A DNA stretch of 37,118 bases from a virus (IMGVR_UViG_3300045988_101868:1-37118), one strand, 5' to 3'; positions 154 through 31,400 are shown, numbered from the stretch's first letter. The notes: generated from the sequence alone by a model not told the origin. Translations and numbers: made by a program.

Positions 154-173
154 GACTAACATCAGACTAACAT
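154..173 (+). promoter_or_regulatory. Two direct GACTAACAT repeats 11 bp apart: candidate arm-type integrase sites (left arm)
   Basis: GACTAACAT at 154-162 and 165-173. The same pair with the same spacing and orientation occurs at 36952-36960/36963-36971. Confidence 0.55.
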
Positions 174-1352
174 CATTTTTTGCGGTTCTGCAATCGCAGA
201 GATGTAATCGTTTAGGTCTATAATTTTATTGATTTTCTTAATCTGATTTGTTTGCACTAAATGTGTATAAATATTCAAAGTCGTTTCGGGCTTTGCGTGT
301 CCGAGTTGGTTTTGGACATAAAGTAAATCTTGACCGCAAAAGAACAAGTTTGTAGCAAAAGTATGTCTTAGATAATGTGCGGTGAATCTTTCAATAACAA
401 AAGGAACGCCTTTTGGGTCGAACTTACTTTTCGGCTTTCGCTCATATTCGGAAAAATCTCCGTATTTAAGATTGAGGTCTGCCATATAGCTGTCCCACAG
501 TTCTCGCCACGCTGTTGTTGAGAAGAACTCCCCTTTTGTTGTAAGTACAACAAAGTCGGATTGTTTATGGTTCTTTTGATTTTTCAGAAAATCCACCAGG
601 GTGTGGGGAATATTGACTGTTCGTATGCCAGCCTTTGACTTTGCTCCTTGCACAATGTGCGGAGTTCCTGTCATTACAAGTTTTTGATGAACACTAATTT
701 GAGCATTTTCAAGGTCAATGTCATACCATTGCAACGCAAGGCATTCACTTAATCTTAAACCAGACAGCATCATGATCATAGCAGGAAGTTGTGCTCTGTG
801 TGGCATTTCCATAACCCACCGCTGTTCTTGCTCGGTCAATGCCCTGCGCTCGCTTACAGGTGCATTTTTCGGTATTCTGACATATGTTAATGGATTGTAG
901 TCAAGTATGCGGTTTTCAACAGCAAAGTCAAACACCTGCCTTGCGGTCATTCTGTAATCACGCAGAGTTTTCTTTGAAGTCGGTTTGCCTGTATGTGGAT
1001 TTCGTGCGAAATAGTCATTTATGATACATTGAAAATCTGCTTTTACAAGTTTGCTGATTGCAACATCGCCTAATACAGAAAACGGTTTAAGGTTTGTTTT
1101 ATAACTCTTATACTGCTTGTCAGAAGAAAGCAGAGCCTTTTTGTATATCAGCCAATTTTCGCAGAGTTCACTGAACGGCATATTCTCGCTAAGAATATCC
1201 ATACCTTTGCTGATTTTTAGCTTGATTTCATTTGCTTTGCGTGTAACCTCAGCTTGCGTTTTGCCAAATACAGACTTATACATAGCTTTGCCGTTTTCAT
1301 CTCGTCCGATATAGATATTTTTTTGATATCTGCCGTCTTTACGCTTTTTCAT
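162..1352 (-). CDS. int: Tyrosine recombinase / phage integrase
   Basis: Catalytic signature seen in translation: GLRLSE (R), KSKAGIRTV (K), HYLRHTF (HxxR), LGHAKP (H), NIYTH (Y). Start moved to ATG 1352 (MKKRKDGRY), which follows AAGGAG. Adjacent to attL. Confidence 0.95.
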   Translation of the reverse strand: MKKRKDGRYQKNIYIGRDENGKAMYKSVFGKTQAEVTRKANEIKLKISKGMDILSENMPFSELCENWLIYKKALLSSDKQYKSYKTNLKPFSVLGDVAISKLVKADFQCIINDYFARNPHTGKPTSKKTLRDYRMTARQVFDFAVENRILDYNPLTYVRIPKNAPVSERRALTEQEQRWVMEMPHRAQLPAMIMMLSGLRLSECLALQWYDIDLENAQISVHQKLVMTGTPHIVQGAKSKAGIRTVNIPHTLVDFLKNQKNHKQSDFVVLTTKGEFFSTTAWRELWDSYMADLNLKYGDFSEYERKPKSKFDPKGVPFVIERFTAHYLRHTFATNLFFCGQDLLYVQNQLGHAKPETTLNIYTHLVQTNQIKKINKIIDLNDYISAIAEPQKMMLV

Positions 1353-1386
1353 TTTATAACACTCCTTTTGTTTTAAAAAAGGGTGC

Positions 1387-1433
1387 AAAAATCCCTTGTG
1401 TTTTTATTCGATAAACTTGCAAAACACAAGGGA
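1387..1433 (-). terminator. Terminator-like or attenuator hairpin in the int leader
   Basis: Perfect 13-bp inverted repeat TCCCTTGTGTTTT / AAAACACAAGGGA (1392-1404 / 1421-1433) with a 16-nt loop. On the minus strand it is followed by TTTTT (rc of 1387-1391), 35 nt before the int start. Confidence 0.5.
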
Positions 1434-1554: not shown

Positions 1555-2874
1555 CTACGGCTTTAGTTGCTCTTTAATTTTAAGAGATTCACGATACTGT
1601 TCAGCCGGAGCAAGTCGAGTAAATTCTACCGTTTTATCGTAATTCTTTTTTACAACTTCTTCTATTTCATCAAGAGTAACATTAAAGAACTCTCGTCTTG
1701 TGTTAATCATATTGACTTTTCTATCCTCAAAGGCTTTATGTAAAGCTGCTTCAAGTGAAGGAGCATCGTCGGAAAAAATCATTGCGTGAACATCAAAGTT
1801 AAACGGAACAGAAGCGTCCCCAAGCTCATCAACTCGATCCATTGGTTCAAGTCTGCGTGTCATACCTATTTTATACACATTCTCTCCAAATGAACCAACA
1901 TTAGATATAATGTACACATAACCTGCTCTTGCATTTGCGGCTCTGTAATCAATATCTTTCATAGATTTATCAATTTCAGAAAGCTCGTTAATGATTTGTT
2001 CTTTTTTCTTGAGTAATTCTTCTTTATCAACATCGGCTGCGGTTTTAATTTGCTGTTCAAGATGTGATAGAGCGTTTTGATAGTGAGTTTGTTCCTTAGC
2101 TATTTTTTTACGAGTTTCTTCAATTTCTTTTTGTAGTTTAGCCTCTTCACGCATACGAGCTCTTATTTCTTTTTGTTCTTCCTTTTCATCTTGCTTTTTC
2201 TTTTTGTATTCAAGTGATAAGCAAAGTTCTTCGTGCTTGGCATTAAAATATTGAGTAGTTATTGCAATTCCCATAATGTTGCCAAGTTTTGAAATTGCTT
2301 CACAGGAACTACGCATCCTTTTTAATGCCGTATCAAAAGTATTGTACTTAACTTTATCAATAAGTTCATCACATTCACTATTGAATGCTCTAAGCAAAAG
2401 TTTTTGCATATCTTTAACCATTTTTTTGCCCTGACTTTTACTTCCATTTACAGTCCAATTAGTGTTACCGGTAACAGCCTGACCGTTTTTTATAAGAGCT
2501 TTTTGTGTATCTCGGATTTGAGATAATCTGTTTTTATACAATTCAGAAGAAGCAAAGTCATACTTAGGAGTATAAAGTCCGAAACTTTGTAACTCAATTT
2601 GTTCATCCATACAGATTATTTGAGATTGTTTGTTATTTATAGTGTTATTTAAACCGATAATTTTGTTGTTTAAATTATTGATCTCGTTATTTTTTTGCCC
2701 AATAACTGCATTTAAGTTATTAATATCATTTTGCAATTTCTGTGTGAGCATAAGTAAATTTTGGGCATTATACATTTCAGGAGTAAATGTGCTTCTAAGC
2801 TGATTAAGTTCAGCTTGTAAGCGTTCTACTTCTGACTTATATTGATTACCCTTAAAGGTATCAAGAAATCCCAT
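1555..2874 (-). CDS. DUF4041 plus C-terminal T5orf172/MUG113 (GIY-YIG-like) domain protein with an N-terminal Asn-rich coiled coil
   Basis: C-terminal GYVYIISN..YKIGMTRRLEPMDRVDELGDASVPFNFDVHAMIFS..EFF matches the T5orf172 pattern. The central FGLYTPKYDF..LLLRAFNSECD region matches the DUF4041 pattern. Start moved to ATG 2874 after AAGGAGA. Last gene of the repressor operon. Confidence 0.75.
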   Translation of the reverse strand: MGFLDTFKGNQYKSEVERLQAELNQLRSTFTPEMYNAQNLLMLTQKLQNDINNLNAVIGQKNNEINNLNNKIIGLNNTINNKQSQIICMDEQIELQSFGLYTPKYDFASSELYKNRLSQIRDTQKALIKNGQAVTGNTNWTVNGSKSQGKKMVKDMQKLLLRAFNSECDELIDKVKYNTFDTALKRMRSSCEAISKLGNIMGIAITTQYFNAKHEELCLSLEYKKKKQDEKEEQKEIRARMREEAKLQKEIEETRKKIAKEQTHYQNALSHLEQQIKTAADVDKEELLKKKEQIINELSEIDKSMKDIDYRAANARAGYVYIISNVGSFGENVYKIGMTRRLEPMDRVDELGDASVPFNFDVHAMIFSDDAPSLEAALHKAFEDRKVNMINTRREFFNVTLDEIEEVVKKNYDKTVEFTRLAPAEQYRESLKIKEQLKP

Positions 2875-2888
2875 ATCAATTCTCCTTA

Positions 2889-3107
2889 TCAAATAGCATT
2901 AGCCTCAAGCTCGTTATGAACAACAGGCTCATAATCATAAAAATGCTCGGATGTAATGTGCTTTAATTCGTGCTTAGCGGCTTTCTGTTGAGTATCATAG
3001 CTAAGCAGAATATTAATATATACATTGTAATTGCCGTCCTCATCTAAGACCGTTACGCCTCGTACGGTCAGCGGCAATTCTAAACCTCTAATAAAAATTT
3101 TTCCCAA
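2889..3107 (-). CDS. Minimal ImmA/IrrE-like metallopeptidase (72 aa)
   Basis: HELKH (HExxH) followed by SEH. TTG start 2 nt after the repressor stop. The XRE-plus-ImmA pairing is typical of ImmR/ImmA-type switches. Confidence 0.55.
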   Translation of the reverse strand: MGKIFIRGLELPLTVRGVTVLDEDGNYNVYINILLSYDTQQKAAKHELKHITSEHFYDYEPVVHNELEANAI

Positions 3108-3109
3108 AG

Positions 3110-3493
3110 CTATTCATCCTTTTTTAATGCTTCAATAATTCTGACTGCTTTTTTCACATCTTCTTTTGTAGCACCCTTAGTAAGACTAAATAACATTCTT
3201 AGTTCACTTCTGTTCTTGAGCTCCTCGAGGTATTTTTGGAGTTCAATGTCATCAGTCATTTTTGATGTTTTGTGTTCCTCTGTCAAATCAGATTTAAGAA
3301 TACCAAAATAGTCAGCCAAAAGTTGCATTTTGTCAACACGAGGGTATTTCTTTTCGTTTGCCCAGTCAGAAACAGTCGAAGCTGTTAAATTCAGATCCGT
3401 TACAAGATTCGATTGGGTTTTATTGTTAGTAGTCATATAATAGTTTAAATTCTTTGCAAAAATTTTTTTGTTAAGCTCACTATTATCGCTCAT
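3110..3493 (-). CDS. XRE-family HTH lysogeny repressor (CI-like)
   Basis: HTH segment KTQSNLVTDLNLTASTVSDWANEKKYP. Divergent from the Cro-like gene across a promoter/operator region. Confidence 0.85.
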   Translation of the reverse strand: MSDNSELNKKIFAKNLNYYMTTNNKTQSNLVTDLNLTASTVSDWANEKKYPRVDKMQLLADYFGILKSDLTEEHKTSKMTDDIELQKYLEELKNRSELRMLFSLTKGATKEDVKKAVRIIEALKKDE

Positions 3494-3522
3494 TAGATCA
3501 CCTACTTTTATGTTATATTTGC

Positions 3523-3551
3523 ATTATACACTAAAAGCGTAAAAAATTCAA
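3523..3551 (-). promoter_or_regulatory. Repressor-operon promoter
   Basis: Minus strand: TTGAAT (rc of 3546-3551), 17 nt, TATAAT (rc of 3523-3528). The spacer contains GCTTTTAGTGT. Confidence 0.65.
3528..3538. promoter_or_regulatory. Operator candidate O1 (ACACTAAAAGC, rc GCTTTTAGTGT)
   Basis: The 11-mer is identical, in inverted orientation, to 3591-3601. It lies in the spacer next to the -10 box of the repressor promoter. Confidence 0.55.
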
Positions 3552-3552
3552 G

Positions 3553-3568
3553 ATATTTTTAAAAATAT
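3553..3568. promoter_or_regulatory. Perfect 16-bp AT palindrome between the two -35 boxes
   Basis: ATATTTTTAAAAATAT is its own reverse complement. It lies between the -35 boxes at 3546-3551 and 3581-3586. Confidence 0.35.
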
Positions 3569-3580
3569 TTTGCTTTTTGC

Positions 3581-3609
3581 TTGACATTATGCTTTTAGTG
3601 TGATATTAT
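3581..3609 (+). promoter_or_regulatory. Early (Cro-side) promoter
   Basis: TTGACA (3581-3586), 17 nt, TATTAT (3604-3609). The spacer contains GCTTTTAGTGT. Confidence 0.7.
3591..3601. promoter_or_regulatory. Operator candidate O2 (GCTTTTAGTGT)
   Basis: Same 11-mer as O1, in the same position relative to the -10 box of the early promoter. Confidence 0.55.
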
Positions 3610-3635
3610 ATATGTGTACCAAGGAGGTGAGGCAA

Positions 3636-3860
3636 ATGGAATATCCTAAAATCACGTTAAAAGCTGCAAGGGTAAATGCTGGTTTATCTCAAAAAGAAGC
3701 AGCTGATATGCTTAATATTAGCAAGGAAACTCTTTCTAACTACGAAAAAGGAACATATTCGCCAAGTTGGGATATGGTGCATAGAATAGGTGAACTGTAT
3801 AGATTTCCTGTTGACTTTATTTTTTTGGGAAAAGATTTACGCTTAAAGCGTATTACTTGA
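3636..3860 (+). CDS. Cro-like XRE-family HTH protein
   Basis: GLSQKEAADMLNISKETLSNYEKG HTH. Start moved to ATG 3636 after GGAGGTG. Confidence 0.85.
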   Translation: MEYPKITLKAARVNAGLSQKEAADMLNISKETLSNYEKGTYSPSWDMVHRIGELYRFPVDFIFLGKDLRLKRIT

Positions 3861-16817: not shown

Positions 16818-18063
16818 ACAAAAAGAATATATCGCAAACGCTACACATCGTTGGAACATAAAAAGCGGTGCGGTGCGTTCGGGCAAAAGTTTTGTTGATG
16901 TCACCTGTATTGTGCCTATGCGTATTCGAGAGCGAATAGGTAAAGACGGTTTGTGCTTTATCATCGGAGTGTCAAAGGAAACAATCGAGCGAAATGTTTT
17001 ACAGCCTATGCGTGAGCGTTACTCTTCCGACATTGTGGGTACAATCAACAGCCGAAACATTGCGAAGGTGTGCGGTGAAGATGTGTATTGTTTGGGTGCG
17101 GAAAAGGTCAGTCAGGTTGCTAAAATTCAGGGTGCGTCGGCAAAATATATTTACGGTGATGAGGTTGCAAAGTGGAACGAAGATGTTTTCAATATGCTTA
17201 AATCCCGACTTGACAAGCCTTATTCGTGCTTTGACGGCAGTTTAAACCCTGAACACCCAACTCATTGGCTCAAGAAATTCATTGACAGTGACGCAGATAT
17301 TTATTTGCAGGAATACACGATTTTCGATAATAAATTCTTATCCGAGGAGTTTGTGAAGAACCTTTGCAATGAATATGAGGGTACAATTTTCTATGACCGT
17401 CTTATACTCGGGAAATGGGTGCGTGCAGAGGGTGCGATTTACCGCAGATTTGCCGACAATCCAAAGAATTTTTACTGCCGAATTACCGATAAAATCAACA
17501 CGGATTTACCGTACAGGCAGTTTTTGAAATCGGAACTTGAAGAAGTGACAATCGGCATTGACTTTGGCGGCAATAAATCGGGTCACGCATTTGTGGCAAC
17601 GGCAAAGACAAGAGGCTACAATAATTTAATAGCGTTGAAAAGCGAACGGCACTTCGGTGAATACGACGGAAACGACATTGACAGGCTGGCAATTAATTTT
17701 GCACAGTCTGTTTTTGATTTGTGCGGTGTTGTTGACTTTGTGTATTGGGATAACGCCGAAACCGTGCTCGGCAGAGGCATTAAACGAGCGTTTGAAGAGC
17801 ATTTCCCAAATACCATAGTCAGACCCGCACGCAAATACCCCGTACAGGACCGTATTCAATGCCTGCTGCGACTTATGGGCGCGGGCAGATTCTTTTACAC
17901 TGACGGCTGCGATACGCTTAAAACGGCATTGTGCGAGGCTGTATGGAATGATAAAAAACTTGTTGACGAAAGACTTGACGACGGTTCAACCGACATCGAC
18001 AGCCTCGACGGTTTTGAATACACATTTGAACGGGATATAAAAAGATTTATAAGGGCGGTGTGA
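16801..18063 (+). CDS. terL: Terminase large subunit (PBSX/Terminase_3-like)
   Basis: Walker A GAVRSGKS. Start moved to ATG 16801 after AAAGGAG. Overlaps the terS stop. Confidence 0.95.
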   Translation: MPYTIKQKEYIANATHRWNIKSGAVRSGKSFVDVTCIVPMRIRERIGKDGLCFIIGVSKETIERNVLQPMRERYSSDIVGTINSRNIAKVCGEDVYCLGAEKVSQVAKIQGASAKYIYGDEVAKWNEDVFNMLKSRLDKPYSCFDGSLNPEHPTHWLKKFIDSDADIYLQEYTIFDNKFLSEEFVKNLCNEYEGTIFYDRLILGKWVRAEGAIYRRFADNPKNFYCRITDKINTDLPYRQFLKSELEEVTIGIDFGGNKSGHAFVATAKTRGYNNLIALKSERHFGEYDGNDIDRLAINFAQSVFDLCGVVDFVYWDNAETVLGRGIKRAFEEHFPNTIVRPARKYPVQDRIQCLLRLMGAGRFFYTDGCDTLKTALCEAVWNDKKLVDERLDDGSTDIDSLDGFEYTFERDIKRFIRAV

Positions 18064-25916: not shown

Positions 25917-26470
25917 TTGGATTACTTCCTACAAGCCTTGAAATAGACGGAGAGCAGTACGAGATTAATTCCGATTTTCGTATTGCTCTCTTGATTTTCG
26001 AGGCTTATGCCGACAAAGAGCTATCCTACTGCGAAAAAGCGGCAGTATGCTTGAATTGCTTATACAAGGAAGTTCCAAAGAATGTTGAGGAGGCACTCAA
26101 AAAGGCATTGTGGTTTCTTGACGGCGGAGATGTGCCGAAATCGAAAAAAGCTCCAGTCAAAATTATTGATTGGAGCTATGACGAAAGCATTATTTTCCCA
26201 GCACTTAACAAGGTTGCAGGCTTTGAAACAAGGATTGCAAGCTATGTGCATTGGTGGACTTTTCTCGGCTATTTCAGTGAGGTAGGCGACGGCTTGCTCT
26301 CGCAGGTAATGAACATAAGAGGCAAGCGTGCTAAGGGCAAAAAGCTTGAAAAATGGGAGCGTGATTTTTACAATGAGCACAAAGAGCTTGTTGACATCAA
26401 GGAAAAGCTCTCTCCCGAACAGCAAGCAGAACTTGACGCCGAAGAAGATTTTATAAACAATCTTGTATAG
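25913..26470 (+). CDS. Bacteriophage Gp15-family protein (tail assembly)
   Basis: LEIDGEQYEINSDFRIALLIFEAY pattern. GTG start overlapping the upstream stop (GTGA). Confidence 0.65.
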   Translation: MIGLLPTSLEIDGEQYEINSDFRIALLIFEAYADKELSYCEKAAVCLNCLYKEVPKNVEEALKKALWFLDGGDVPKSKKAPVKIIDWSYDESIIFPALNKVAGFETRIASYVHWWTFLGYFSEVGDGLLSQVMNIRGKRAKGKKLEKWERDFYNEHKELVDIKEKLSPEQQAELDAEEDFINNLV

Positions 26471-26489
26471 GTGTTACACAAAATTATTG

Positions 26490-26518
26490 TTGACAATAAA
26501 CAAACTTTGTTATATTAT
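26490..26518 (+). promoter_or_regulatory. Near-consensus SigA promoter of island unit 1
   Basis: TTGACA (26490-26495), 17 nt, TATTAT (26513-26518). Confidence 0.7.
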
Positions 26519-26537
26519 GTAACAAAGGAGTGATTTT

Positions 26538-26993
26538 ATGAACAGCAAATTTTACAAAGGTATAACAGTCGTACTATTGATACTTGGTGCAGTCGGAGGA
26601 ATAGCTTTAGGCGCAGTTTTCCAAAGCGTACATACAAATATTCTTACCGATACGGTAACTCGTAGTTTTAATATTACCTTAATGCTTGTATGCTGGGTAT
26701 CAACTGTATTTTTATGTCTAATATTTGGGGGCATCGCAAAAATACTTGCATACCTCGAAGAATTAGGTGCGGGTAAAAATTCAGTGATTACCAAAACAAC
26801 AGATTGGGAATGCCCTAAATGTCATTGCATGAATAAAGCAGAGGCGACGGAATGTTCTAACTGCCATTTACCGCATAACAGTAACAAACAGCAAAAACCT
26901 GTTAGTAATGATAAATGGGAGTGTCCACAATGCCATTGCGTTAATTCTTATAGCAATATAGCAGAATGTCCTAATTGTCATTGGCGACCATAA
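26538..26993 (+). CDS. 2-TM membrane protein with two C-terminal RanBP2-type zinc fingers
   Basis: TM1 ITVVLLILGAVGGIALGAVF. TM2 ITLMLVCWVSTVFLCLIFGGIAKIL. WECPKCHCMNKAEATECSNC fits W-x-C-x2-C-x3-N-x6-C-x2-C exactly. WECPQCHCVNSYSNIAECPNC fits with x7. Confidence 0.8.
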   Translation: MNSKFYKGITVVLLILGAVGGIALGAVFQSVHTNILTDTVTRSFNITLMLVCWVSTVFLCLIFGGIAKILAYLEELGAGKNSVITKTTDWECPKCHCMNKAEATECSNCHLPHNSNKQQKPVSNDKWECPQCHCVNSYSNIAECPNCHWRP

Positions 26994-27014
26994 TTGATTT
27001 AAAAACAATGTAAA

Positions 27015-27045
27015 AGCCACTCCAAACGGGGTGGCTAAAATTTTT
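27015..27045. terminator. Intrinsic terminator (usable on both strands)
   Basis: AGCCACTCC AAAC GGGGTGGCT (one G.T pair) followed by AAAATTTTT. The rc is followed by TTTTACATTGTTTTT. Confidence 0.7.
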
Positions 27046-27066
27046 CAAATTATTTTTAAATAGGTA

Positions 27067-27095
27067 TTGACATATGAACATAAACGGTGTACTAT
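27067..27095 (+). promoter_or_regulatory. SigA promoter of island unit 2
   Basis: TTGACA (27067-27072), 17 nt, TACTAT (27090-27095). Confidence 0.65.
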
Positions 27096-27104
27096 ATGAA
27101 CATA
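27072..27104 (+). promoter_or_regulatory. Two direct ATATGAACATA repeats 22 bp apart (operator candidates for the RHH protein)
   Basis: 27072-27082 abuts the -35 box. 27094-27104 overlaps the -10 box and the start region. Confidence 0.55.
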
Positions 27105-27119
27105 GGAGGTGAATGACGA

Positions 27120-27455
27120 ATGAGAAAAGCTTTTAGGACAACAATAGATGAAGATGTACTATTCGAATTGAAGAAAATGGCACTTGAAAAGGGGTGTCAT
27201 GTAAATGACATAATAGAAAAATTAGTCATTGATAATCTTCATGAACAGTATTTTACTAAGGACCTCAAAAAATTTCCTGAAATGAATTTAGCAGAAAAGC
27301 AATCTTATTTAAAAAGAAGAGTGTCAAAAGTAATACAGGATGTTATGGATGAGTGTAATCTTAAAATAAAACCGTCTAATTTTACTGATATTATGGCAAG
27401 AACCATATCAGACTTAATTCTTTCGGACGATATATTGTTTCCTAAAAAGAAATAA
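27120..27455 (+). CDS. Ribbon-helix-helix (Arc/CopG/MetJ-type) DNA-binding protein
   Basis: N-terminal KAFRTTIDEDVLFELKKMALEKGCHVNDIIEKLVIDNL fits a strand-helix-helix layout. GGAGGTG RBS. Confidence 0.72.
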   Translation: MRKAFRTTIDEDVLFELKKMALEKGCHVNDIIEKLVIDNLHEQYFTKDLKKFPEMNLAEKQSYLKRRVSKVIQDVMDECNLKIKPSNFTDIMARTISDLILSDDILFPKKK

Positions 27456-27494
27456 CGGCAACTATCCACCGACCAAAGCGATTAGTTACCGTTA
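27444..27494 (-). terminator. Minus-strand intrinsic terminator
   Basis: The minus strand reads TAACGGTAACT (rc of 27484-27494), a 20-nt loop, AGTTGCCGTTA (rc of 27453-27463), then TTTCTTTTT (rc of 27444-27452). The plus strand has no T run after the hairpin. Confidence 0.55.
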
Positions 27495-27519
27495 CAAAAA
27501 GACAGAAGTATCTCTATCT
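27445..27519 (-). ncRNA. Candidate antisense sRNA (about 75 nt) opposing the RHH/ORF6N operon
   Basis: A consensus promoter and a terminator on the minus strand with no ORF between them. Complementary to the RHH stop-codon region and the intercistronic mRNA. Ends are predicted. Confidence 0.5.
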
Positions 27520-27526
27520 GAAATCT

Positions 27527-27555
27527 ATTATATCATTTAGCGGAACTTCTGTCAA
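27527..27555 (-). promoter_or_regulatory. Full-consensus extended -10 SigA promoter on the minus strand
   Basis: Minus strand: TTGACA (rc of 27550-27555), a 17-nt spacer ending in TGA, then TATAAT (rc of 27527-27532). Confidence 0.65.
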
Positions 27556-27582
27556 ATTAAAATTATGATAGGAGTTTTTATT

Positions 27583-27786
27583 ATGGCTTGTGTAAAGAAT
27601 GTAAAAAATGTAATCAAAAGTGTTCGTGGCACTATTAATCCATATTATGATATGGGCTACGAGAACGTTACGGAAATTTATCGTACCAATTCAAGTGTAT
27701 GTGATATGATTTGCGATGCATTCGCATTTGGATATGCTCAAGGCATTAAAGCTGCAAAAGCTGAAATGAGAAAGGCGGTTAAATGA
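27583..27786 (+). CDS. Hypothetical 67-aa protein
   Basis: Start moved to ATG 27583 after TAGGAG. Its stop lies 1 nt before the ORF6N start. Confidence 0.6.
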   Translation: MACVKNVKNVIKSVRGTINPYYDMGYENVTEIYRTNSSVCDMICDAFAFGYAQGIKAAKAEMRKAVK

Positions 27787-27787
27787 T

Positions 27788-28357
27788 ATGAAAGCTATGG
27801 AATACAAAGGACAGAAAGTTATTACAACTGCAATGCTAGCAGAGGCATACGGAACAAGTACAAGTTATATCAGCAACAATTTTTCCCGCAATAAAAGTAA
27901 ATTTGTTGAGGGAAAGCATTACTTTTATCTCGATGGTGAAGAATTTAAAGAATTTAAGACCAGTCATCTTAAAGATGAGTGGTTGAAACGAGCAAGTCAT
28001 TTATATTTGTGGACTGAAAGAGGAGCAAATCACCACTGCAAAATTCTTGATACAGACAAGGCGTGGGAGCAGTTTGAAAATCTCGAGGAAACATATTTCA
28101 GAGTAAAAGAAGCGGTTAATGCATTTGTTTCTCCGGATACGGTAAAGTATCTTAACGGTGTTGCTAATTATCTGCGTATTCAGCGTGCAATTATGAAAGA
28201 CAAAGGTTGCACACCTCTTGAAATTGCTCAAATGGATAAACTGACTTGCGATACATATGGAATACCTGTTCCGGACAGCCTGTCAGCCCCTAAGGCATAC
28301 GAACAGCTTGCGATTGCAGGTATAACACAAAAGAAACTTGAAGCAAAGAACTCATAA
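27788..28357 (+). CDS. ORF6N-domain (KilA-N superfamily) protein, antirepressor/Rha-like
   Basis: YKGQKVITTAMLAEAYGTSTSYISNNFSRNKSKFVEGKHYFYL...LYLWTERGANHHCKIL matches the ORF6N pattern. Confidence 0.7.
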   Translation: MKAMEYKGQKVITTAMLAEAYGTSTSYISNNFSRNKSKFVEGKHYFYLDGEEFKEFKTSHLKDEWLKRASHLYLWTERGANHHCKILDTDKAWEQFENLEETYFRVKEAVNAFVSPDTVKYLNGVANYLRIQRAIMKDKGCTPLEIAQMDKLTCDTYGIPVPDSLSAPKAYEQLAIAGITQKKLEAKNS

Positions 28358-28376
28358 CAACTAAATAAGCTAATTA

Positions 28377-28407
28377 CAGCGTACATCTTCGGGTGTGCGC
28401 TGTTTTT
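28377..28407 (+). terminator. Intrinsic terminator closing island unit 2
   Basis: CAGCGTACA TCTTCGGG TGTGCGCTG (one G.T pair) followed by TTTTT. Confidence 0.7.
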
Positions 28408-28412
28408 ATACC

Positions 28413-28446
28413 AAGGGTGTAGCATTTTTGCAACGCCCTTATTTTT
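28413..28446 (+). terminator. Second hairpin plus T run immediately upstream of the tape measure RBS
   Basis: AAGGGTGT / ACGCCCTT (28413-28420 / 28433-28440) with inner GCA/TGC pairs, followed by ATTTTT. Confidence 0.5.
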
Positions 28447-28467: not shown

Positions 28468-31400
28468 ATGGCGGTTGACGGCAGTTTGATTTTTAATACC
28501 AAAATCGACACAAGCGGTCTTAACAGCGATATTGCAAGAATCAATAAAGCTATCGAGGCGGCTCAGAGCAAGGCTCAGGCAGGTGCTAAGACTACTGCTC
28601 AGACTGCACAAAATGCAACTCAACAAGTGTCAAATTCTGCCGACAAAATAGTTGATGAAGTTAAAAACAACACATCAGATATTGGCGCTCAGATACAAAA
28701 TATAATTGCTGATACAGAGAGAAGTGCAAAGTCGAAAGCAATGTCTATTGCTTCTATTCTGAAACGAACAGGAATGACACAAGCAGAGGCAATGCAGGCA
28801 GCTTGGGATAAAGTAAACAGTTCTGTTTCACAGCAAGTGAAAAAAACAAATTCAGAGGTTGAGCAAGAAACAGAAAAAACAGGCAAAAATATTAAAGAGA
28901 ATACTGATTTATACAGTAAACAGGTTCTTGATGTGCTGAAAAGCATTGATAAAAATGTTGCAGACAGCTCAAAAAATATATCTGAAAAGGTACAGAAAGC
29001 AGTGACTTTGAGTGCAAGTAAAGCTAAGCAGTCGCTTACAACAGTCAGAACGGCTGTTGACAGACTGCAAAGCAAGGCGAAAATGATTGGTAGAACGCTG
29101 CTTACCGCTTTCGGTACGGCGGCGGTTGTGAGCTTTGGCAAGGAAAGCATAGAGCTTGGCTCGGACCTTGCAGAAGTGCAGAATGTAGTTGATGTTACTT
29201 TTAGTCATATGTCTGCAAGTGTGGACGATTGGGCAAAGTCGGCACAAAAAGCCTACGGCTTGTCTGAAACTATGGCTAAAAAATATGTCGGCACTTTTGG
29301 TTCTATGGCGGAGGCTTTCGGCTTTACAGAACAGCAGGCATTTGATATGTCCACATCATTAACCGCTCTTACGGGCGATGTGGCGTCATTTTATAACATC
29401 ACACAAGACGAGGCGTACACAAAGCTGAAATCTGTTTTCAGCGGTGAAACCGAAACGCTCAAAGACCTTGGTATTGTGATGACGCAGAACGCACTTGACA
29501 ATTACGCAATGGCTAACGGCTGGGGCAAGACCACATCTGCTATGACTGAGGCAGAAAAGGTAACGCTTAGATATAACTTTGTACTCGGTCAGTTGAGCAA
29601 TGCAACGGGTGACTTTGCACGCACTCAGAACAGTTGGGCAAATCAAACGAGAATTTTACAGCTGCAGTTTGACAGTATCAAGGCTACAATCGGTCAAGGC
29701 TTGATAAATGCTTTTACTCCACTGCTTAATTGCATTAATCAGTTTATCTCAAGACTTAGCGTTGCGGCACAGAAGTTTAAAGACTTTACAGCTCAGGTGT
29801 TCGGCTATTCTACGGCAACAAGCAATGCGACAAGCTCAGCTGTAAGCGATATGTCAGACCTTGCAAGTCAAGCGGACAGTTCTACATCTGAGATTGAAAA
29901 AACATCGGAGGCAGCTGAAGACTTGAAGAAAAACCTTGCAGGCTTTGATGAACTCAATGTGATGAGCGACACCTCGGACAACAGTTCAGACACAAGCACG
30001 CAAGCACCAAGCTCTGAAATCAAATCAATGCAAAATGCACTTGAGCAAGCTATGCTTGAAAGCGACAGGCACACAAGCAAGACTATTGACAATATTGTAA
30101 ATTCACTTGACAAGGTAAAAAACGCCTGCGTAACAATTAAAAATTCGTGGGAGAAAGTGTGGAATAACGGCACAGGCGAAAAGGTGCTTGAAAATATCAA
30201 CTCATTAATTAACACTTTTGTAAGCACAGTTGGCGACATTGCAGAGGCTTTTACAAATGCTTGGGACAAAGCAGGCTTAGGCGACAGCGTGGTGCAATCG
30301 TTTATCGACAAGTGGAACAGCCTTGTTGAGCTTTTGGATACGGTAGGCGATACATTCAGGCAGGTGTGGAATGACGGTAAGGGCGAGAAAATTTGGAGCA
30401 ATATACTTGAGATTATCCGCAACTGCAATAACTATACTGAAACTCTCAGAACCAAAATTAAAGACGCTTGGGAGAAAAACGATAAAGGTAAGAAAATATG
30501 GGAGAACATTCTCGGTATAGTAGAGGATATAACAGGTTTTCTTGATGATATGTCGCAAATCAGGCTTGAGTGGCTTGAAGACCTAAACCTTGACCCTGTT
30601 GCAAAAGCGGTTGAAACACTTAGCGGAGCTTTCCGAGAACTGTTAAAAGCCTGCGGCGATAAGCTAAAACAAGCCTATAAAACTATTCTTTTGCCTTTGG
30701 CAAAGTGGACTATTGAAAAGGTTGTACCTGATTTGCTTAATGCATTTGCCGGAGCGCTTAAAGATATTTCAGATATTATAGAAAAAATAAGCCCATCTGT
30801 GTTAAAAGCAGTAGCAGTAGGTATTAGTGCTGTTGCAACGGCAGTTATCACATTCAAGACAGGTAAGACTATTGCGAGTGGTATAAGTGAAGTCACATCA
30901 GCAGTTAAAAATATTAGCTCTGTGATTTCAGCTAACCCTCTGCTTGTTATAGCAAGCGCAATAACGGGTATTGTTTTAGCCGTACAGGCTTACAACGATT
31001 GCAGGTGGAGCAATTCCGAGGCAAAAAAATTTTGTGATGAGTTGCAGGTTATTTCAGATGATTTGCAAGGTACTTGTGACGGTATTACTGAAAAGATTGA
31101 GAATACTCTTAATACTCTTGACCAAAATTACGCTGAAAACACTTTGATTGATAACTATCAAGAAAAGCTCGAAACTTTGCTTAATAAAGCAGAACTTTCA
31201 CCCTCAGAAATGGCTCAATTACAAACTATTGTTACCTATTTTGAAGACAATGTTGACGGATTTAAAGATACTTGGGATAGATATGTTGAAATAAGTGATG
31301 GTAATACAGTAAATCTTAAAGGCAATTTGGGCGAAGTATCTTCGGGACTTAACAATCTCATTGATAATTATCAGAAAACCGCAAATGCTGCGGCTCTGTC

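What the first reader, a model, noticed from the sequence alone, without database searches (positions are those of the whole stretch)
26471..28446. Self-contained 2-kb island between the tail chaperone genes and the tape measure gene, with a P22 sieA/immI-like architecture
In siphoviruses the chaperone genes normally abut the tape measure gene. Here 1.98 kb separate the Gp15-like stop (26470) from the tape measure start (28468). The island holds two autonomous units. Unit 1 is TTGACA-17-TATTAT (26490-26518), a 2-TM protein with two zinc fingers, and a terminator (27015-27045). Unit 2 is TTGACA-17-TACTAT (27067-27095) carrying two ATATGAACATA repeats, an RHH protein, a minus-strand consensus promoter plus terminator (antisense sRNA candidate), a 67-aa protein, an ORF6N protein and tandem terminators. 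A spot count gives 18/60 G+C at 27181-27240 against 29/60 in terL (17041-17100), which suggests foreign origin. The gene logic is membrane protein, RHH repressor, antisense RNA, then antirepressor-type DNA-binding protein, all embedded in the late operon. That mirrors the Salmonella phage P22 sieA-mnt-arc-(sar)-ant region. No sequence homology to P22 is claimed. Alternatively this could be an undescribed exclusion or defence module expressed from the prophage.
Basis: partly seen in the sequence, partly recalled or inferred. Interest (0 to 1): 0.75.

Follow-up and report, generated by a model that had tools for sequence, protein, structure and literature searches.

The report
Swappable accessory cassettes before tape-measure gene
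Between the tail-chaperone and tape-measure genes of a gut Ruminococcus prophage lies a variable accessory slot holding a membrane-protein gene and a tightly repressed antirepressor-like operon with its own small antisense RNA; the layout resembles known phage "moron" and immI regions, but the parts are new and no function has been tested.

Summary

The Gp15|TMP junction is a hypervariable accessory hotspot: the gap is 23-30 bp in 3 relatives and up to 2.6 kb in others. It has a conserved scaffold: P1, cassette 1, T1, then optionally P2/operator, regulator, antisense RNA, small ORF and effector, then T2, T3 and TMP.

Each slot has non-homologous alternatives:
- Slot 1: ZnTM, a lipoprotein, a TM-OB-LRR protein, or a 243-aa protein.
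- Slot 2: RHH111, RHH58, or an XRE pair.
- Slot 3: p67 or C6.
- Slot 4: ORF6N or BroN-KilAC.

Operator repeats change with the regulator. A ~90-bp core is conserved in every variant. It holds a 12/12 minus-strand promoter and encodes a predicted ~75-nt two-hairpin antisense RNA, seen in 12 sequence variants.

Unit 1 is a classical moron at the position of HK97 gp15, the first moron described, and is probably a superinfection-exclusion protein. Unit 2 is built like P22 immI (Arc-sar-Ant) and P1 immI (icd-ant coupling), without detectable homology to the P22 proteins that were compared. The effector's function is only inferred.

Verdict: new variant of a known kind; moderate interest.

The parts
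26490..26518 (+). P1, sigma-70-type promoter of cassette 1 (TTGACA-17-TATTAT)
   Evidence: 11/12 match. One of only 3 near-consensus sites in the window. The promoter and leader are conserved in relatives whatever gene follows: ZnTM, C8, or a short ZnTM-like ORF plus lipoprotein.
26538..26993 (+). ZnTM: 151-aa protein with two N-terminal transmembrane helices and two C-terminal CxxC...CxxC zinc ribbons; slot-1 cargo, putative superinfection-exclusion or lysogenic-conversion protein
   Evidence: Hydropathy and CxxC positions. Weak Zn_ribbon_RanBP hit. Narrow ORFan family with 10 clusters and no names. No PADLOC hit. Occurs alone at this junction in 16 of 72 relatives.
27015..27045 (+). T1, intrinsic terminator of cassette 1
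   Evidence: 9-bp G+C-rich stem plus a T-rich tail. dG -16.4, z -4.8. Conserved after different slot-1 genes, with compensatory stem variants in L036 and L068.
27067..27111 (+). P2 (TTGACA-17-TACTAT, 27067-27095) with two direct operator-like repeats ATATGAACATA(N7) at 27072 and 27094, overlapping the region just after -35 and the -10/RBS
   Evidence: In relatives the sequence is shared up to TTGAC and then switches with the regulator type. RHH58 variants carry GCC(C/A)GACAA twice, about 23 bp apart, in the same geometry.
27120..27455 (+). RHH111: 111-aa putative ribbon-helix-helix autorepressor (slot 2)
   Evidence: PHROG 3180 'Arc-like repressor', E=8e-8, residues 1-36. No Pfam or PDB sequence hit. 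Replaced in relatives by RHH58 (DUF6290/RHH_1-like) or by an XRE HTH pair.
27445..27520 (-). Predicted ~75-nt antisense RNA: a 5' small hairpin plus a long terminator hairpin (27452-27495) and a U-run that overlaps the RHH111 stop codon
   Evidence: dG -28.8, z -6.0 on the minus strand against -13.5 on the plus strand. Twelve distinct sequence variants in relatives all keep the two-hairpin, U-tail architecture, and all fold better on the minus strand. No Rfam family matches. The TSS is inferred from the -10 position.
27527..27555 (-). Promoter of the antisense RNA (TTGACA-17-TATAAT with TG), the only 12/12 site in the window
   Evidence: The -35, -10 and TG are invariant in 15 aligned core variants while the spacer varies.
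27501..27578 (+). Conserved sense-strand leader. 5' arm GACAGAAGT (27501-27509), 3' arm / anti-SD ACTTCTGTC (27545-27553), slot-3 RBS GATAGGAGT (27567-27575). Two alternative hairpins are possible: 5' arm with 3' arm, or 3' arm with RBS.
   Evidence: Inverted repeat I1. Hairpin 1 has dG -17.6, z -4.8; hairpin 2 has dG -12.6, z -3.4. When the antisense-covered part is blocked, the RBS unpaired probability falls to about 0. The inner part of the arms covaries between type A and type B variants. The core is present with every regulator type and every slot-3 gene.
27583..27786 (+). p67: 67-aa helical protein of unknown function (slot 3); its stop lies 1 nt before the ORF6N start
   Evidence: 14 clusters, conserved, unnamed. 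AF2 model has three helices, pLDDT 71, with no fold match. Replaced in relatives by the non-homologous C6 (~90 aa).
27788..28357 (+). ORF6N-domain protein, 189 aa (slot 4): N-terminal winged-helix-like DNA-binding domain plus a helical C-terminal domain of unknown family; antirepressor-type effector
   Evidence: PF10543, 1.2e-23. PHROG 'anti-repressor' families down to 1e-36. AF2 pLDDT 74; the N-domain resembles the Ski/Dachshund/Mbp1 folds weakly. 1489 homologues found; the N-domain is also fused to ORF6C or KilAC elsewhere. Replaced by BroN+KilAC in L026, L068 and L125.
28376..28446 (+). T2 (28376-28403, cUUCGg loop) and T3 (28413-28440), tandem intrinsic terminators just upstream of the TMP RBS
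   Evidence: Present in all island-bearing relatives, including those with only a slot-1 gene. The T3 stem covaries.

Best explanation
The 2-kb stretch is an accessory ('moron') hotspot at the tail-chaperone | tape-measure junction of a temperate siphophage of Ruminococcus/Ruminococcoides. It has a fixed scaffold of promoters and terminators into which alternative cargo genes are exchanged by recombination.

Cassette 1 (P1-ZnTM-T1) is a stand-alone moron. It is presumably expressed from the prophage. Its membrane-anchored zinc-ribbon protein most likely acts at the cytoplasmic membrane against superinfecting phage DNA entry, as HK97 gp15 does at the same genomic position. This function is inferred.

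Cassette 2 is an immI-type, multiply silenced effector operon. The proposed mechanism has four steps:
1. RHH111 is made first from P2. It binds the two 22-bp-spaced repeats that overlap P2 and its own RBS, and so auto-represses. This is inferred from the geometry and from operator/regulator co-switching.
2. Transcripts that read past RHH111 carry p67 and ORF6N. There is no plus-strand terminator between them; this is shown by the sequence.
3. A constitutive consensus promoter inside the leader fires convergently and makes a ~75-nt antisense RNA that ends at the RHH111 stop codon. The RNA is predicted and is conserved in 12 sequence variants. It would lower p67-ORF6N expression in two ways: by transcriptional interference, and by pairing with the 5' arm of the leader. 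That pairing frees the anti-SD ACUUCUGUC to close the p67 RBS. This step is inferred from folding.
4. ORF6N translation is coupled to p67 (stop and start 1 nt apart).

The effector (ORF6N, or BroN-KilAC in relatives), perhaps together with p67, is most likely an antirepressor-type protein. It would act on the XRE-type prophage repressor of this or related phages. It would be made in a burst on infection or late in induction, before RHH and the antisense RNA accumulate. This is inferred from annotation and from the P22/P1 analogy.
For: Hotspot and scaffold:
- The gap is 23-30 bp in L050, L051 and L057 and up to 2636 bp elsewhere.
- There are four slots with non-homologous alternatives.
- P1, T1, T2 and T3 are conserved irrespective of cargo.
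- The same scaffold occurs in lineages with unrelated chaperones and a TMP only 26-55% identical.

Promoters:
- Two of the three best sigma-70 sites in 37 kb lie here.

Autoregulation:
- The repeats are exact, unique in the window and spaced 22 bp.
- The operator sequence switches at the -35 together with the regulator type.

Antisense RNA:
- The promoter is 12/12 plus TG, with invariant hexamers.
- Folding shows strand asymmetry and z -6.
- Twelve variants with about 9 unrelated terminator stems all end in U-runs.
- P22 sar has the same size and placement, with its terminator overlapping the arc stop.

RBS switch.

Effector class:
- PF10543 and PHROG anti-repressor hits.
- Slot shared with a BroN+KilAC protein.
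- The HTH92 variant has a divergent CI-like/Cro-like pair upstream, like Mnt/Arc.

Accessory, not structural:
- 16 of 72 contigs carry the module.
- The same CI (96% identical) occurs in contigs with and without it.

Precedent for cassette 1: HK97 gp15 (PMC3594210) and P22 SieA (PMC10883804).
Against: - No expression data exist. All promoters, the TSS and the RNA are predictions.
- RHH111 is called RHH only by one PHROG profile. Pfam, NCBIfam and the PDB sequence search are silent.
- No ORF6N-only protein with this C-terminal domain has, to my knowledge, been shown to be an antirepressor.
- hhalign and BLAST find nothing in common with P22 Ant or Arc.
- The antisense RNA does not overlap the RBS.
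- In type-B core variants the RBS hairpin forms even without the antisense RNA. The switch model therefore fits the window's type-A core better than all variants.
- ACTTCTGTCA overlaps the -35 and GGAG is the SD, so their invariance has other explanations.
- ZnTM has no homologue of known function and no defence-database hit.
- Three terminators upstream of TMP are unexplained. No antiterminator was found.
Confidence: 0.55

Rival explanations
1. Cassette 2 is a prophage-encoded defence, abortive-infection or toxin-antitoxin-like module. The ORF6N or BroN-KilAC protein (a 'Kil'-type DNA-binding protein), with p67, would be a growth-arresting effector. It would be held off by the RHH regulator and the antisense RNA, and released when an infecting phage perturbs transcription or RNA turnover.
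For: - RHH proteins are typical antitoxins and autoregulators.
- RHH58 hits DUF6290/RHH_1 weakly, and a lone RelB antitoxin occupies the hotspot in L044-L046.
- ORF6N hits the PADLOC candidate family PDC-S05 at 3.5e-10.
- The hotspot's other cargo looks like exclusion or defence genes.
- The layout of a labile antisense RNA over a silenced effector resembles type I/III TA logic.
- The module is dispensable and uncoupled from the CI type.
Against: - No known toxin family is detected in p67, C6 or ORF6N.
- A 127-nt regulated spacer separates the RHH gene from the next ORF, unlike the overlapping genes of type II TA operons.
- p67 is soluble and helical, not a hydrophobic type I toxin.
- The PDC-S05 hit covers only the ORF6N DNA-binding domain.
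- The alternative slot-4 protein carries the KilAC 'ANT' domain typical of proteins annotated as phage antirepressors.
Confidence: 0.2
2. The slot-4 protein is a sequence-specific DNA-binding transcription regulator of the phage's own lysis-lysogeny or late programme. It could be an activator or a second repressor, and would not act as a protein-protein antirepressor. p67 would be a modulator or leader peptide.
For: - ORF6N belongs to the KilA-N/APSES-like DNA-binding fold class; the model resembles the Ski/Dachshund/Mbp1 DNA-binding domains.
- Nothing shows a repressor-binding surface.
- The strict multilayer control is equally expected for a developmental regulator.
Against: - The same CI-type phages exist with and without the module, so it cannot be an essential regulator.
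- Non-homologous proteins (ORF6N and BroN-KilAC) fill the slot interchangeably with the same upstream control region. That is easier to understand for an effector acting on a common target than for a site-specific DNA binder.
Confidence: 0.15
3. The island is a passive mosaic remnant. The genes are expressed only by read-through with the late genes, or not at all, and the consensus-like signals have no function.
For: The total count of promoter-like sites in the region (14 against 9.4 +/- 3.3 in shuffles) is not by itself significant. No expression data exist.
Against: - All signals are conserved across dozens of contigs while the cargo changes.
- Terminator stems covary.
- The operator co-switches with the regulator.
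- The proteins are under evident purifying selection.
- Three terminators would block simple read-through.
Confidence: 0.04

Closest known systems
HK97 gene 15 moron (Juhala et al. 2000; Cumby et al. 2012; reviewed in PMC3594210)
   Same: [quoted passage not shown] It has its own promoter and terminator and a deviating G+C. It encodes a small inner-membrane protein expressed from the prophage that blocks DNA entry of superinfecting phages. Cassette 1 here (P1-ZnTM-T1) has the same anatomy.
   Different: There is no sequence relation. gp15 is a YebO-like small membrane protein; ZnTM has two TM helices plus two zinc ribbons. The host is Gram-positive. The site here is a multi-allelic hotspot with at least five alternative cargos. 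Exclusion by ZnTM is untested.
Salmonella phage P22 immI region with sieA (sieA, mnt, Pant/Oarc, arc, sar, ant; record NC_002371)
   Same: Both are embedded in the late operon next to a tail gene, with a membrane exclusion gene beside the module. In both, a small RHH-type repressor gene is first in the operon under an operator-bearing promoter. In both, a convergent ~70-nt antisense RNA lies between the repressor gene and the effector, and its terminator overlaps the repressor's stop codon. An antirepressor-type gene and a terminator follow. Both are dispensable.
   Different: No homology was detected to Ant (P22_AR_N/C) or Arc; Mnt and SieA were not compared. There is no divergent Mnt in the window. 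In P22 the sar promoter lies inside ant and sar covers the ant RBS; here the promoter lies upstream of the RBS and an anti-SD hairpin is the proposed link. An extra small ORF (p67) precedes the effector. sieA is on the opposite strand in P22.
Phage P1/P7 immI (c4 antisense RNA, icd, ant1/2). From my own knowledge of the literature; not checked in a record here.
   Same: A small ORF (icd, ~73 codons) precedes the antirepressor gene and is translationally coupled to it. An antisense RNA controls the small ORF's translation and thereby the antirepressor. Here p67 (67 codons) ends 1 nt before the ORF6N start, and the riboregulation targets the p67 RBS.
   Different: c4 is processed from the same transcript and acts on upstream target sites; here the RNA is convergently transcribed. 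P1 immI has no RHH repressor. No homology was tested.
ORF6N / Bro-N / KilA-N / KilAC 'antirepressor' proteins of Firmicutes phages (Pfam PF10543, PF02498, PF03374; PHROG anti-repressor families)
   Same: The slot-4 protein is a bona fide PF10543 member (83.6 bits against a cut-off of 27.8). Relatives carry BroN+KilAC in the same slot.
   Different: The C-terminal ~80 residues match no known family or fold. In most annotated phages these genes sit in the early/lysogeny region (e.g. hits H9-H15), not before TMP. The family's 'antirepressor' label is largely annotation transfer.
Gram-positive superinfection-exclusion membrane proteins and lipoproteins (TP-J34 Ltp, Tuc2009 Sie2009; cited in PMC10883804, PMC3952083)
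   Same: These are prophage-expressed membrane or lipoproteins that block TMP-dependent DNA injection of siphophages. The slot-1 alternatives here include a lipoprotein (C3) and TM-anchored surface proteins (C2).
   Different: Those genes lie in the lysogeny module. No homology was found or tested beyond the Pfam/PADLOC scans. ZnTM's soluble domain is predicted to be cytoplasmic (zinc ribbons), unlike surface-exposed Ltp.

Membership tests
Moron (Juhala/Hendrix definition) | Own promoter upstream of the inserted gene(s) | tested here: met
   P1 11/12 and P2 10/12 consensus matches. Conserved in relatives regardless of cargo. Activity not measured.
Moron (Juhala/Hendrix definition) | Own factor-independent terminator downstream | tested here: met
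   T1, T2 and T3 have z-scores from -4.8 to -7.1 and covarying stems.
Moron (Juhala/Hendrix definition) | Present in some and absent from other closely related phages at the same junction | tested here: met
   The gap is 23-30 bp in L050, L051 and L057 and 500-2636 bp in the others. There are 19 architectures.
Moron (Juhala/Hendrix definition) | Base composition differs from the flanking genes | tested here: met
   0.350 against 0.427. Modest: 11th percentile of sliding windows.
Moron (Juhala/Hendrix definition) | Expressed from the repressed prophage | not testable with these tools
   Needs RNA-seq of a lysogen.
P22-type immI region | Arc/Mnt-family RHH repressor(s) (PF03869) | tested here: inconclusive
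   PHROG 3180 'Arc-like repressor', 8e-8. There is no Pfam Arc/RHH hit and no BLAST similarity to P22 Arc.
P22-type immI region | Ant homologue (P22_AR_N PF10547 / P22_AR_C PF10548) | tested here: not met
   P22 Ant hits those families. The window protein hits PF10543 only. hhalign probability is 0.4%.
P22-type immI region | Convergent small antisense RNA between the repressor gene and ant | tested here: met
   Prediction only. 12/12 promoter, two-hairpin ~75-nt RNA, 12 conserved variants. Same placement as sar, with the terminator over the stop codon.
P22-type immI region | Antisense RNA complementary to the ant ribosome-binding site | tested here: not met
   The predicted RNA spans 27445-27520. 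The p67 RBS is at 27567-27575.
P22-type immI region | Divergently transcribed maintenance repressor (Mnt) | tested here: not met
   None in the window. A divergent CI-like XRE gene exists only in the HTH92 variants such as L041.
P1-type immI region | Small ORF translationally coupled to the antirepressor gene | tested here: met
   The p67 stop is at 27784-27786 and the ORF6N ATG at 27788. In C6 variants the reading frames overlap. Coupling itself not measured.
P1-type immI region | Antisense RNA processed from the same (sense) transcript | tested here: not met
   The RNA here has its own promoter on the opposite strand.
ORF6N domain family (PF10543) | Score above the Pfam gathering threshold over the full domain | tested here: met
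   83.6 bits against 27.8; residues 2-86 match profile positions 2-86 of 86.
Type II toxin-antitoxin operon | Antitoxin gene directly adjacent to or overlapping a recognisable toxin gene | tested here: not met
   A 127-nt spacer with a convergent promoter lies between them. No toxin family is detected in p67 or ORF6N.
Known anti-phage defence systems (PADLOC-DB v2) | Profile match of the island proteins to a defined system | tested here: not met
   Only ORF6N matches, to the candidate family PDC-S05 (3.5e-10, domain-level). ZnTM and p67 have no hit; RHH111 has only a marginal hit (PDC-M07A, 0.0017).

The most novel reading that the evidence does not exclude
The conserved ~90-bp core is a previously undescribed, portable riboregulatory module. 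It comprises a consensus minus-strand promoter, a ~75-nt antisense RNA, an anti-anti-SD/anti-SD/SD leader and a coupled small ORF. Gut Ruminococcaceae phages would use it as a universal 'safety catch' for interchangeable antirepressor-type effectors, with interchangeable repressors plugged in upstream. Together with the slot-1 genes this would form a plug-and-play secondary-immunity and exclusion locus at the chaperone|TMP junction. It would govern cross-induction and superinfection among the very abundant R. bromii-group prophages of the human gut.
Probability: 0.35. Interest if true: 0.65.

Novelty: new variant of a known kind. Interest (0 to 1): 0.5.

Why it matters
Secondary immunity (immI) regions with antisense RNA control are textbook material. 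They are known experimentally almost only from enterobacterial phages (P22, P1/P7).

If this module works as proposed, it would show that the same regulatory logic arose in siphophages of strictly anaerobic gut Firmicutes, built from unrelated parts. It would also show that the logic is packaged as exchangeable cassettes (repressor/operator, riboregulator core, effector) at the archetypal moron site.

It gives concrete, testable handles for a keystone gut genus in which phage biology is almost unexplored:
- a predicted sRNA;
- operators;
- four ORFan protein families;
- a cultured lysogen, Ruminococcoides intestinihominis CLA-AA-H171, that carries a variant of the module.

These could be used to study prophage induction, cross-talk between co-resident prophages and superinfection exclusion. 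If the effector turns out not to be an antirepressor, the locus still defines a new accessory-gene hotspot and a new small RNA.

Tried and rejected
- Phage GenBank collection, blastn distant: no close relative. Only scattered 66-80% matches to ORF6N N-domains and TMP, so the annotation of relatives could not be borrowed.
- Rfam, E up to 1: nothing for the antisense RNA or the terminators. One spurious Plasmodium RUF6 hit lies on T1.
- PDB sequence searches for RHH111 and ORF6N: nothing meaningful.
- Pfam on the isolated RHH111 N- and C-terminal halves: nothing.
- NCBIfam: nothing for any island protein.
- PADLOC: no defined system.
- Structure prediction and Foldseek against the PDB. ORF6N (pLDDT 74) gave only weak winged-helix/APSES-like matches for the N-domain and nothing for the C-domain. 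p67 (pLDDT 71, three helices) gave no match.
- p67 against C6 by hhalign: no homology (probability 2%), despite a shared FxxG(F/Y) C-terminal motif.
- MAFFT/RNAalifold on the antisense RNAs: the terminator stems are too dissimilar to align, so no formal covariation count was obtained. I replaced it with per-variant folding. The count of structure pairs was not used, because indels between core types A and B prevent a column-wise structure string.
- CI operator in P1. The inverted repeat TGTTACA...TGTAACA around P1 is not conserved in relatives. It is unlike the CI/Cro-region repeats ACACTAAAAGC. Rejected as a CI operator.
- Correlation of the module with CI type. The same CI (96%) occurs with and without the module. 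The sample is too small for more.
- Literature searches: no description of this locus or of R. bromii-group phage immunity regions.

Full report
**1. What is in the sequence**

The window is a temperate siphophage or prophage. Its gene map is as follows:
- integrase, 162-1388 (minus strand);
- a PD-Lambda-1 defence homologue, 1555-2892 (minus);
- an ImmA-like HExxH ORF, 2889-3107 (minus);
- an XRE CI-like repressor, 3110-3493 (minus);
- a Cro-like gene, 3600-3860 (plus);
- replication genes, then terminase, head and tail genes.

The Gp15-like tail chaperone gene (PF06854) ends at 26470. The tape measure gene starts at 28468.

Two corrections are small. p67 starts at 27583. The minus-strand terminator is the long hairpin 27452-27495 plus a U-run, not the short stem that the simple scan reports.

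The signals are more than chance. Only three sites in 37 kb match TTGACA-N17-TATAAT with at most one mismatch, against 0.5 expected. One is the Cro-side early promoter. The other two are P1 and the antisense promoter of the island. The 11-nt repeat occurs exactly twice in the window, both times in P2. The G+C dip is real but modest: 0.350 against 0.427.

**2. Comparative anatomy**

The core motif is found in Ruminococcoides intestinihominis and in two Ruminococcus MAGs. The host is therefore the R. bromii group.

Searches with the Gp15-like protein, the ORF6N protein and a core DNA motif returned about 180 IMG/VR loci. In these, the distance from the chaperone stop to the TMP start ranges from 23-30 bp, the 'canonical' state seen in three contigs, up to 2636 bp.

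Clustering of the ORFs in this gap gives a modular picture:
- Slot 1: ZnTM, a 287-aa lipoprotein, a zinc-ribbon/TM/OB/BspA-LRR protein, a 243-aa protein, or a lone RelB-type antitoxin.
- Slot 2: RHH111, RHH58, or a divergent CI-like/Cro-like XRE pair.
- Slot 3: p67 or C6. These are not homologous.
- Slot 4: ORF6N, or a BroN+KilAC (PF03374) protein.

Among 72 independent Gp15-type contigs, 16 carry slots 2-4. Three carry nothing. The rest carry only a slot-1 gene.

The scaffold stays constant while the cargo changes. This holds for the P1 promoter and leader, for T1 (AGCCACTCC-loop-GGGGTGGCT), and for T2 and T3. The same scaffold sits before TMP in lineages whose chaperones are unrelated and whose TMP is only 26-55% identical. 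The genes are therefore accessory and not virion components.

**3. The regulatory core of cassette 2**

*Operators.* Upstream of slot 2 the sequence is shared up to the -35 TTGAC and then switches with the regulator. RHH111 genes follow ATATGAACATA twice, 22 bp apart. RHH58 genes follow GCC(C/A)GACAA twice, about 23 bp apart, in the same geometry around the -10. This co-switching is the strongest available evidence that the repeats are the regulator's operators. It remains an inference.

*Conserved core.* Between slot 2 and slot 3 a ~90-bp core is present in all 25 variants, whatever the regulator and whatever the slot-3 gene. It contains the 12/12 minus-strand promoter with an extended -10. 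The hexamers are invariant and the spacer is variable.

*Predicted antisense RNA.* The predicted transcript is about 75 nt and folds into a small 5' hairpin plus a long terminator hairpin with a U-tail. It folds far better on the minus strand (-28.8 kcal/mol, z -6.0) than on the plus strand (-13.5). Twelve distinct versions, with roughly nine unrelated terminator stems, all keep this architecture and this strand asymmetry. The U-tail is supplied by the lysine codons at the end of the regulator genes. Rfam has no such family.

*Sense leader.* On the sense strand the core forms an inverted repeat, GACAGAAGT ... ACTTCTGTC. Its inner part covaries between two core types: GTAACCC/GGGTTAC against GTTACCC/GGGTAAC. 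The 3' arm can pair instead with the invariant TGATAGGAGT that contains the slot-3 Shine-Dalgarno sequence. When the segment covered by the antisense RNA is blocked, the RBS becomes fully paired.

In the window's type-A core the free leader prefers the arm-arm hairpin. In type-B cores the two states are nearly isoenergetic, or the RBS hairpin already forms. I therefore regard the 'antisense frees the anti-SD' switch as plausible but not general.

*Coupling.* The slot-3 stop and slot-4 start are 1 nt apart, or the frames overlap in C6 variants. This suggests translational coupling.

**4. The proteins**

- ZnTM has two TM helices and two CxxC-X-CxxC ribbons. It belongs to a 10-cluster ORFan family.
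- RHH111 matches only the PHROG 'Arc-like repressor' profile, at 8e-8. Reading the sequence directly, residues 1-40 fit a strand-helix-G-x-helix pattern.
- p67 is a conserved three-helix ORFan.
- The slot-4 protein is a clear PF10543 member. It has a winged-helix/APSES-like N-domain and a helical C-domain without relatives of known fold.
- None of the island proteins matches a defined defence system.

**5. Mechanism**

See Best explanation for the full statement. Three things are shown. First, the anatomy. Second, the conservation, co-switching and covariation of the signals. Third, the accessory status of the genes.

The following are inferred:
- promoter activity;
- the RNA itself;
- autorepression;
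- the RBS switch;
- translational coupling;
- what the proteins do.

The antirepressor reading rests on three points. The first is family annotation. The second is the interchange with a KilAC-domain protein. The third is the architectural identity with immI regions. The same CI (96% identical) occurs in phages with and without the module. So if the effector is an antirepressor it is an optional one, as in P22.

**6. Comparison with known systems**

I compared the region with the annotated P22 record. That record shows sieA; then mnt; then the overlapping Pant/Pmnt promoters with Oarc and Omnt. arc, sar, ant and a terminator follow, and then gene 9. sar is 70 nt. Its terminator overlaps the arc stop, and its promoter lies inside ant.

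The window shares several features: the order of the parts, the size and placement of the antisense RNA, the position in the late operon, and the neighbouring membrane-protein gene.

It differs in several ways:
- it lacks Mnt;
- it has an extra small ORF, as in P1 icd-ant;
- its antisense promoter lies upstream of the RBS;
- no homology to P22 Arc or Ant was detected.

Cassette 1 corresponds to the very first moron, HK97 gene 15. [quoted passage not shown] P22 SieA, Ltp and Sie2009 are functional analogues (PMC10883804).

**7. Verdict**

The locus is a new variant of known kinds: a moron hotspot plus an immI-like secondary-immunity operon. It is built from ORFan parts, in an unexplored host group. 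It includes a well-supported but unverified new small antisense RNA.

Interest is moderate (0.5). A specialist would find the cassette logic and the conserved riboregulator attractive and testable, but not paradigm-changing.

The main unexplained point is how late transcription passes the three strong terminators directly upstream of the essential TMP gene.

Noticed in passing
window 1555-2892 (-): A 445-aa protein between the integrase and the ImmA/CI genes matches the PD-Lambda-1 anti-phage defence protein (PADLOC E=3.4e-164; PHROG 1847). This is a second prophage-borne defence cargo, at the lysogeny-module hotspot.
   Followed up: partly
window 2889-3493 (-) and 3494-3610: The master switch looks ImmR/ImmA-like. 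A 72-aa ORF with an HELKH metalloprotease motif lies directly downstream of the XRE CI-like repressor. The CI/Cro intergenic region holds the inverted repeats ACACTAAAAGC (3528) and GCTTTTAGTGT (3591), and an 11/12 consensus promoter at 3581-3609.
   Followed up: partly
window 27015-27036, 28376-28403, 28413-28440 (and all island-bearing loci, e.g. L004, L005): Three strong intrinsic terminators lie in series between the chaperone genes and the essential TMP gene, even in relatives that carry only a slot-1 gene. Late transcription must read through them. No antiterminator or TMP-proximal promoter was identified.
   Followed up: partly
L125, L130, L178 versus L068 (terminator hairpin of the antisense RNA): The ~18-nt loop of the hairpin is reverse-complemented between otherwise identical stems (tccccgaccaaagcgact against agtcgctttggtcgggga). 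This suggests the loop flipped by recombination across the inverted stem arms. The loop motif CGACCAAAG / CUUUGGUCG recurs in several unrelated stems.
   Followed up: no
L041 8602-9350; L116: In HTH92 variants the regulator slot holds a divergent pair. A 134-aa CI-like XRE repressor lies on the minus strand and a 92-aa Cro-like HTH on the plus strand. This is effectively a second immunity switch in front of the antisense core and ORF6N, reminiscent of Mnt/Arc.
   Followed up: partly
L044-L046, island of 514 bp: A lone RelB/DinJ-type antitoxin gene (PF04221, 8e-19), with its own promoter and no adjacent toxin ORF of at least 45 aa, occupies the hotspot in one lineage.
   Followed up: no
L005, L006, L015, L016, L023, L025 (slot 1): A truncated ZnTM-like ORF (the same first ~10 codons as ZnTM) precedes the 287-aa lipoprotein gene. 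This suggests cargo replacement by recombination inside the ZnTM 5' end.
   Followed up: no
L100 6579-7295; L071 slot 1: C2-type slot-1 proteins combine an N-terminal zinc ribbon (CPHCG...CDKCG), one TM helix, a tRNA_anti-like OB domain and, in long forms, BspA-type LRRs. They are candidate surface-exposed conversion or exclusion proteins.
   Followed up: no
L125 (Ruminococcoides intestinihominis CLA-AA-H171, contig 8) 5410-7390: A cultured isolate carries the variant C2_TM > RHH58 > p67 (73% identical) > BroN-KilAC with the conserved core. It is a practical strain for experiments.
   Followed up: partly
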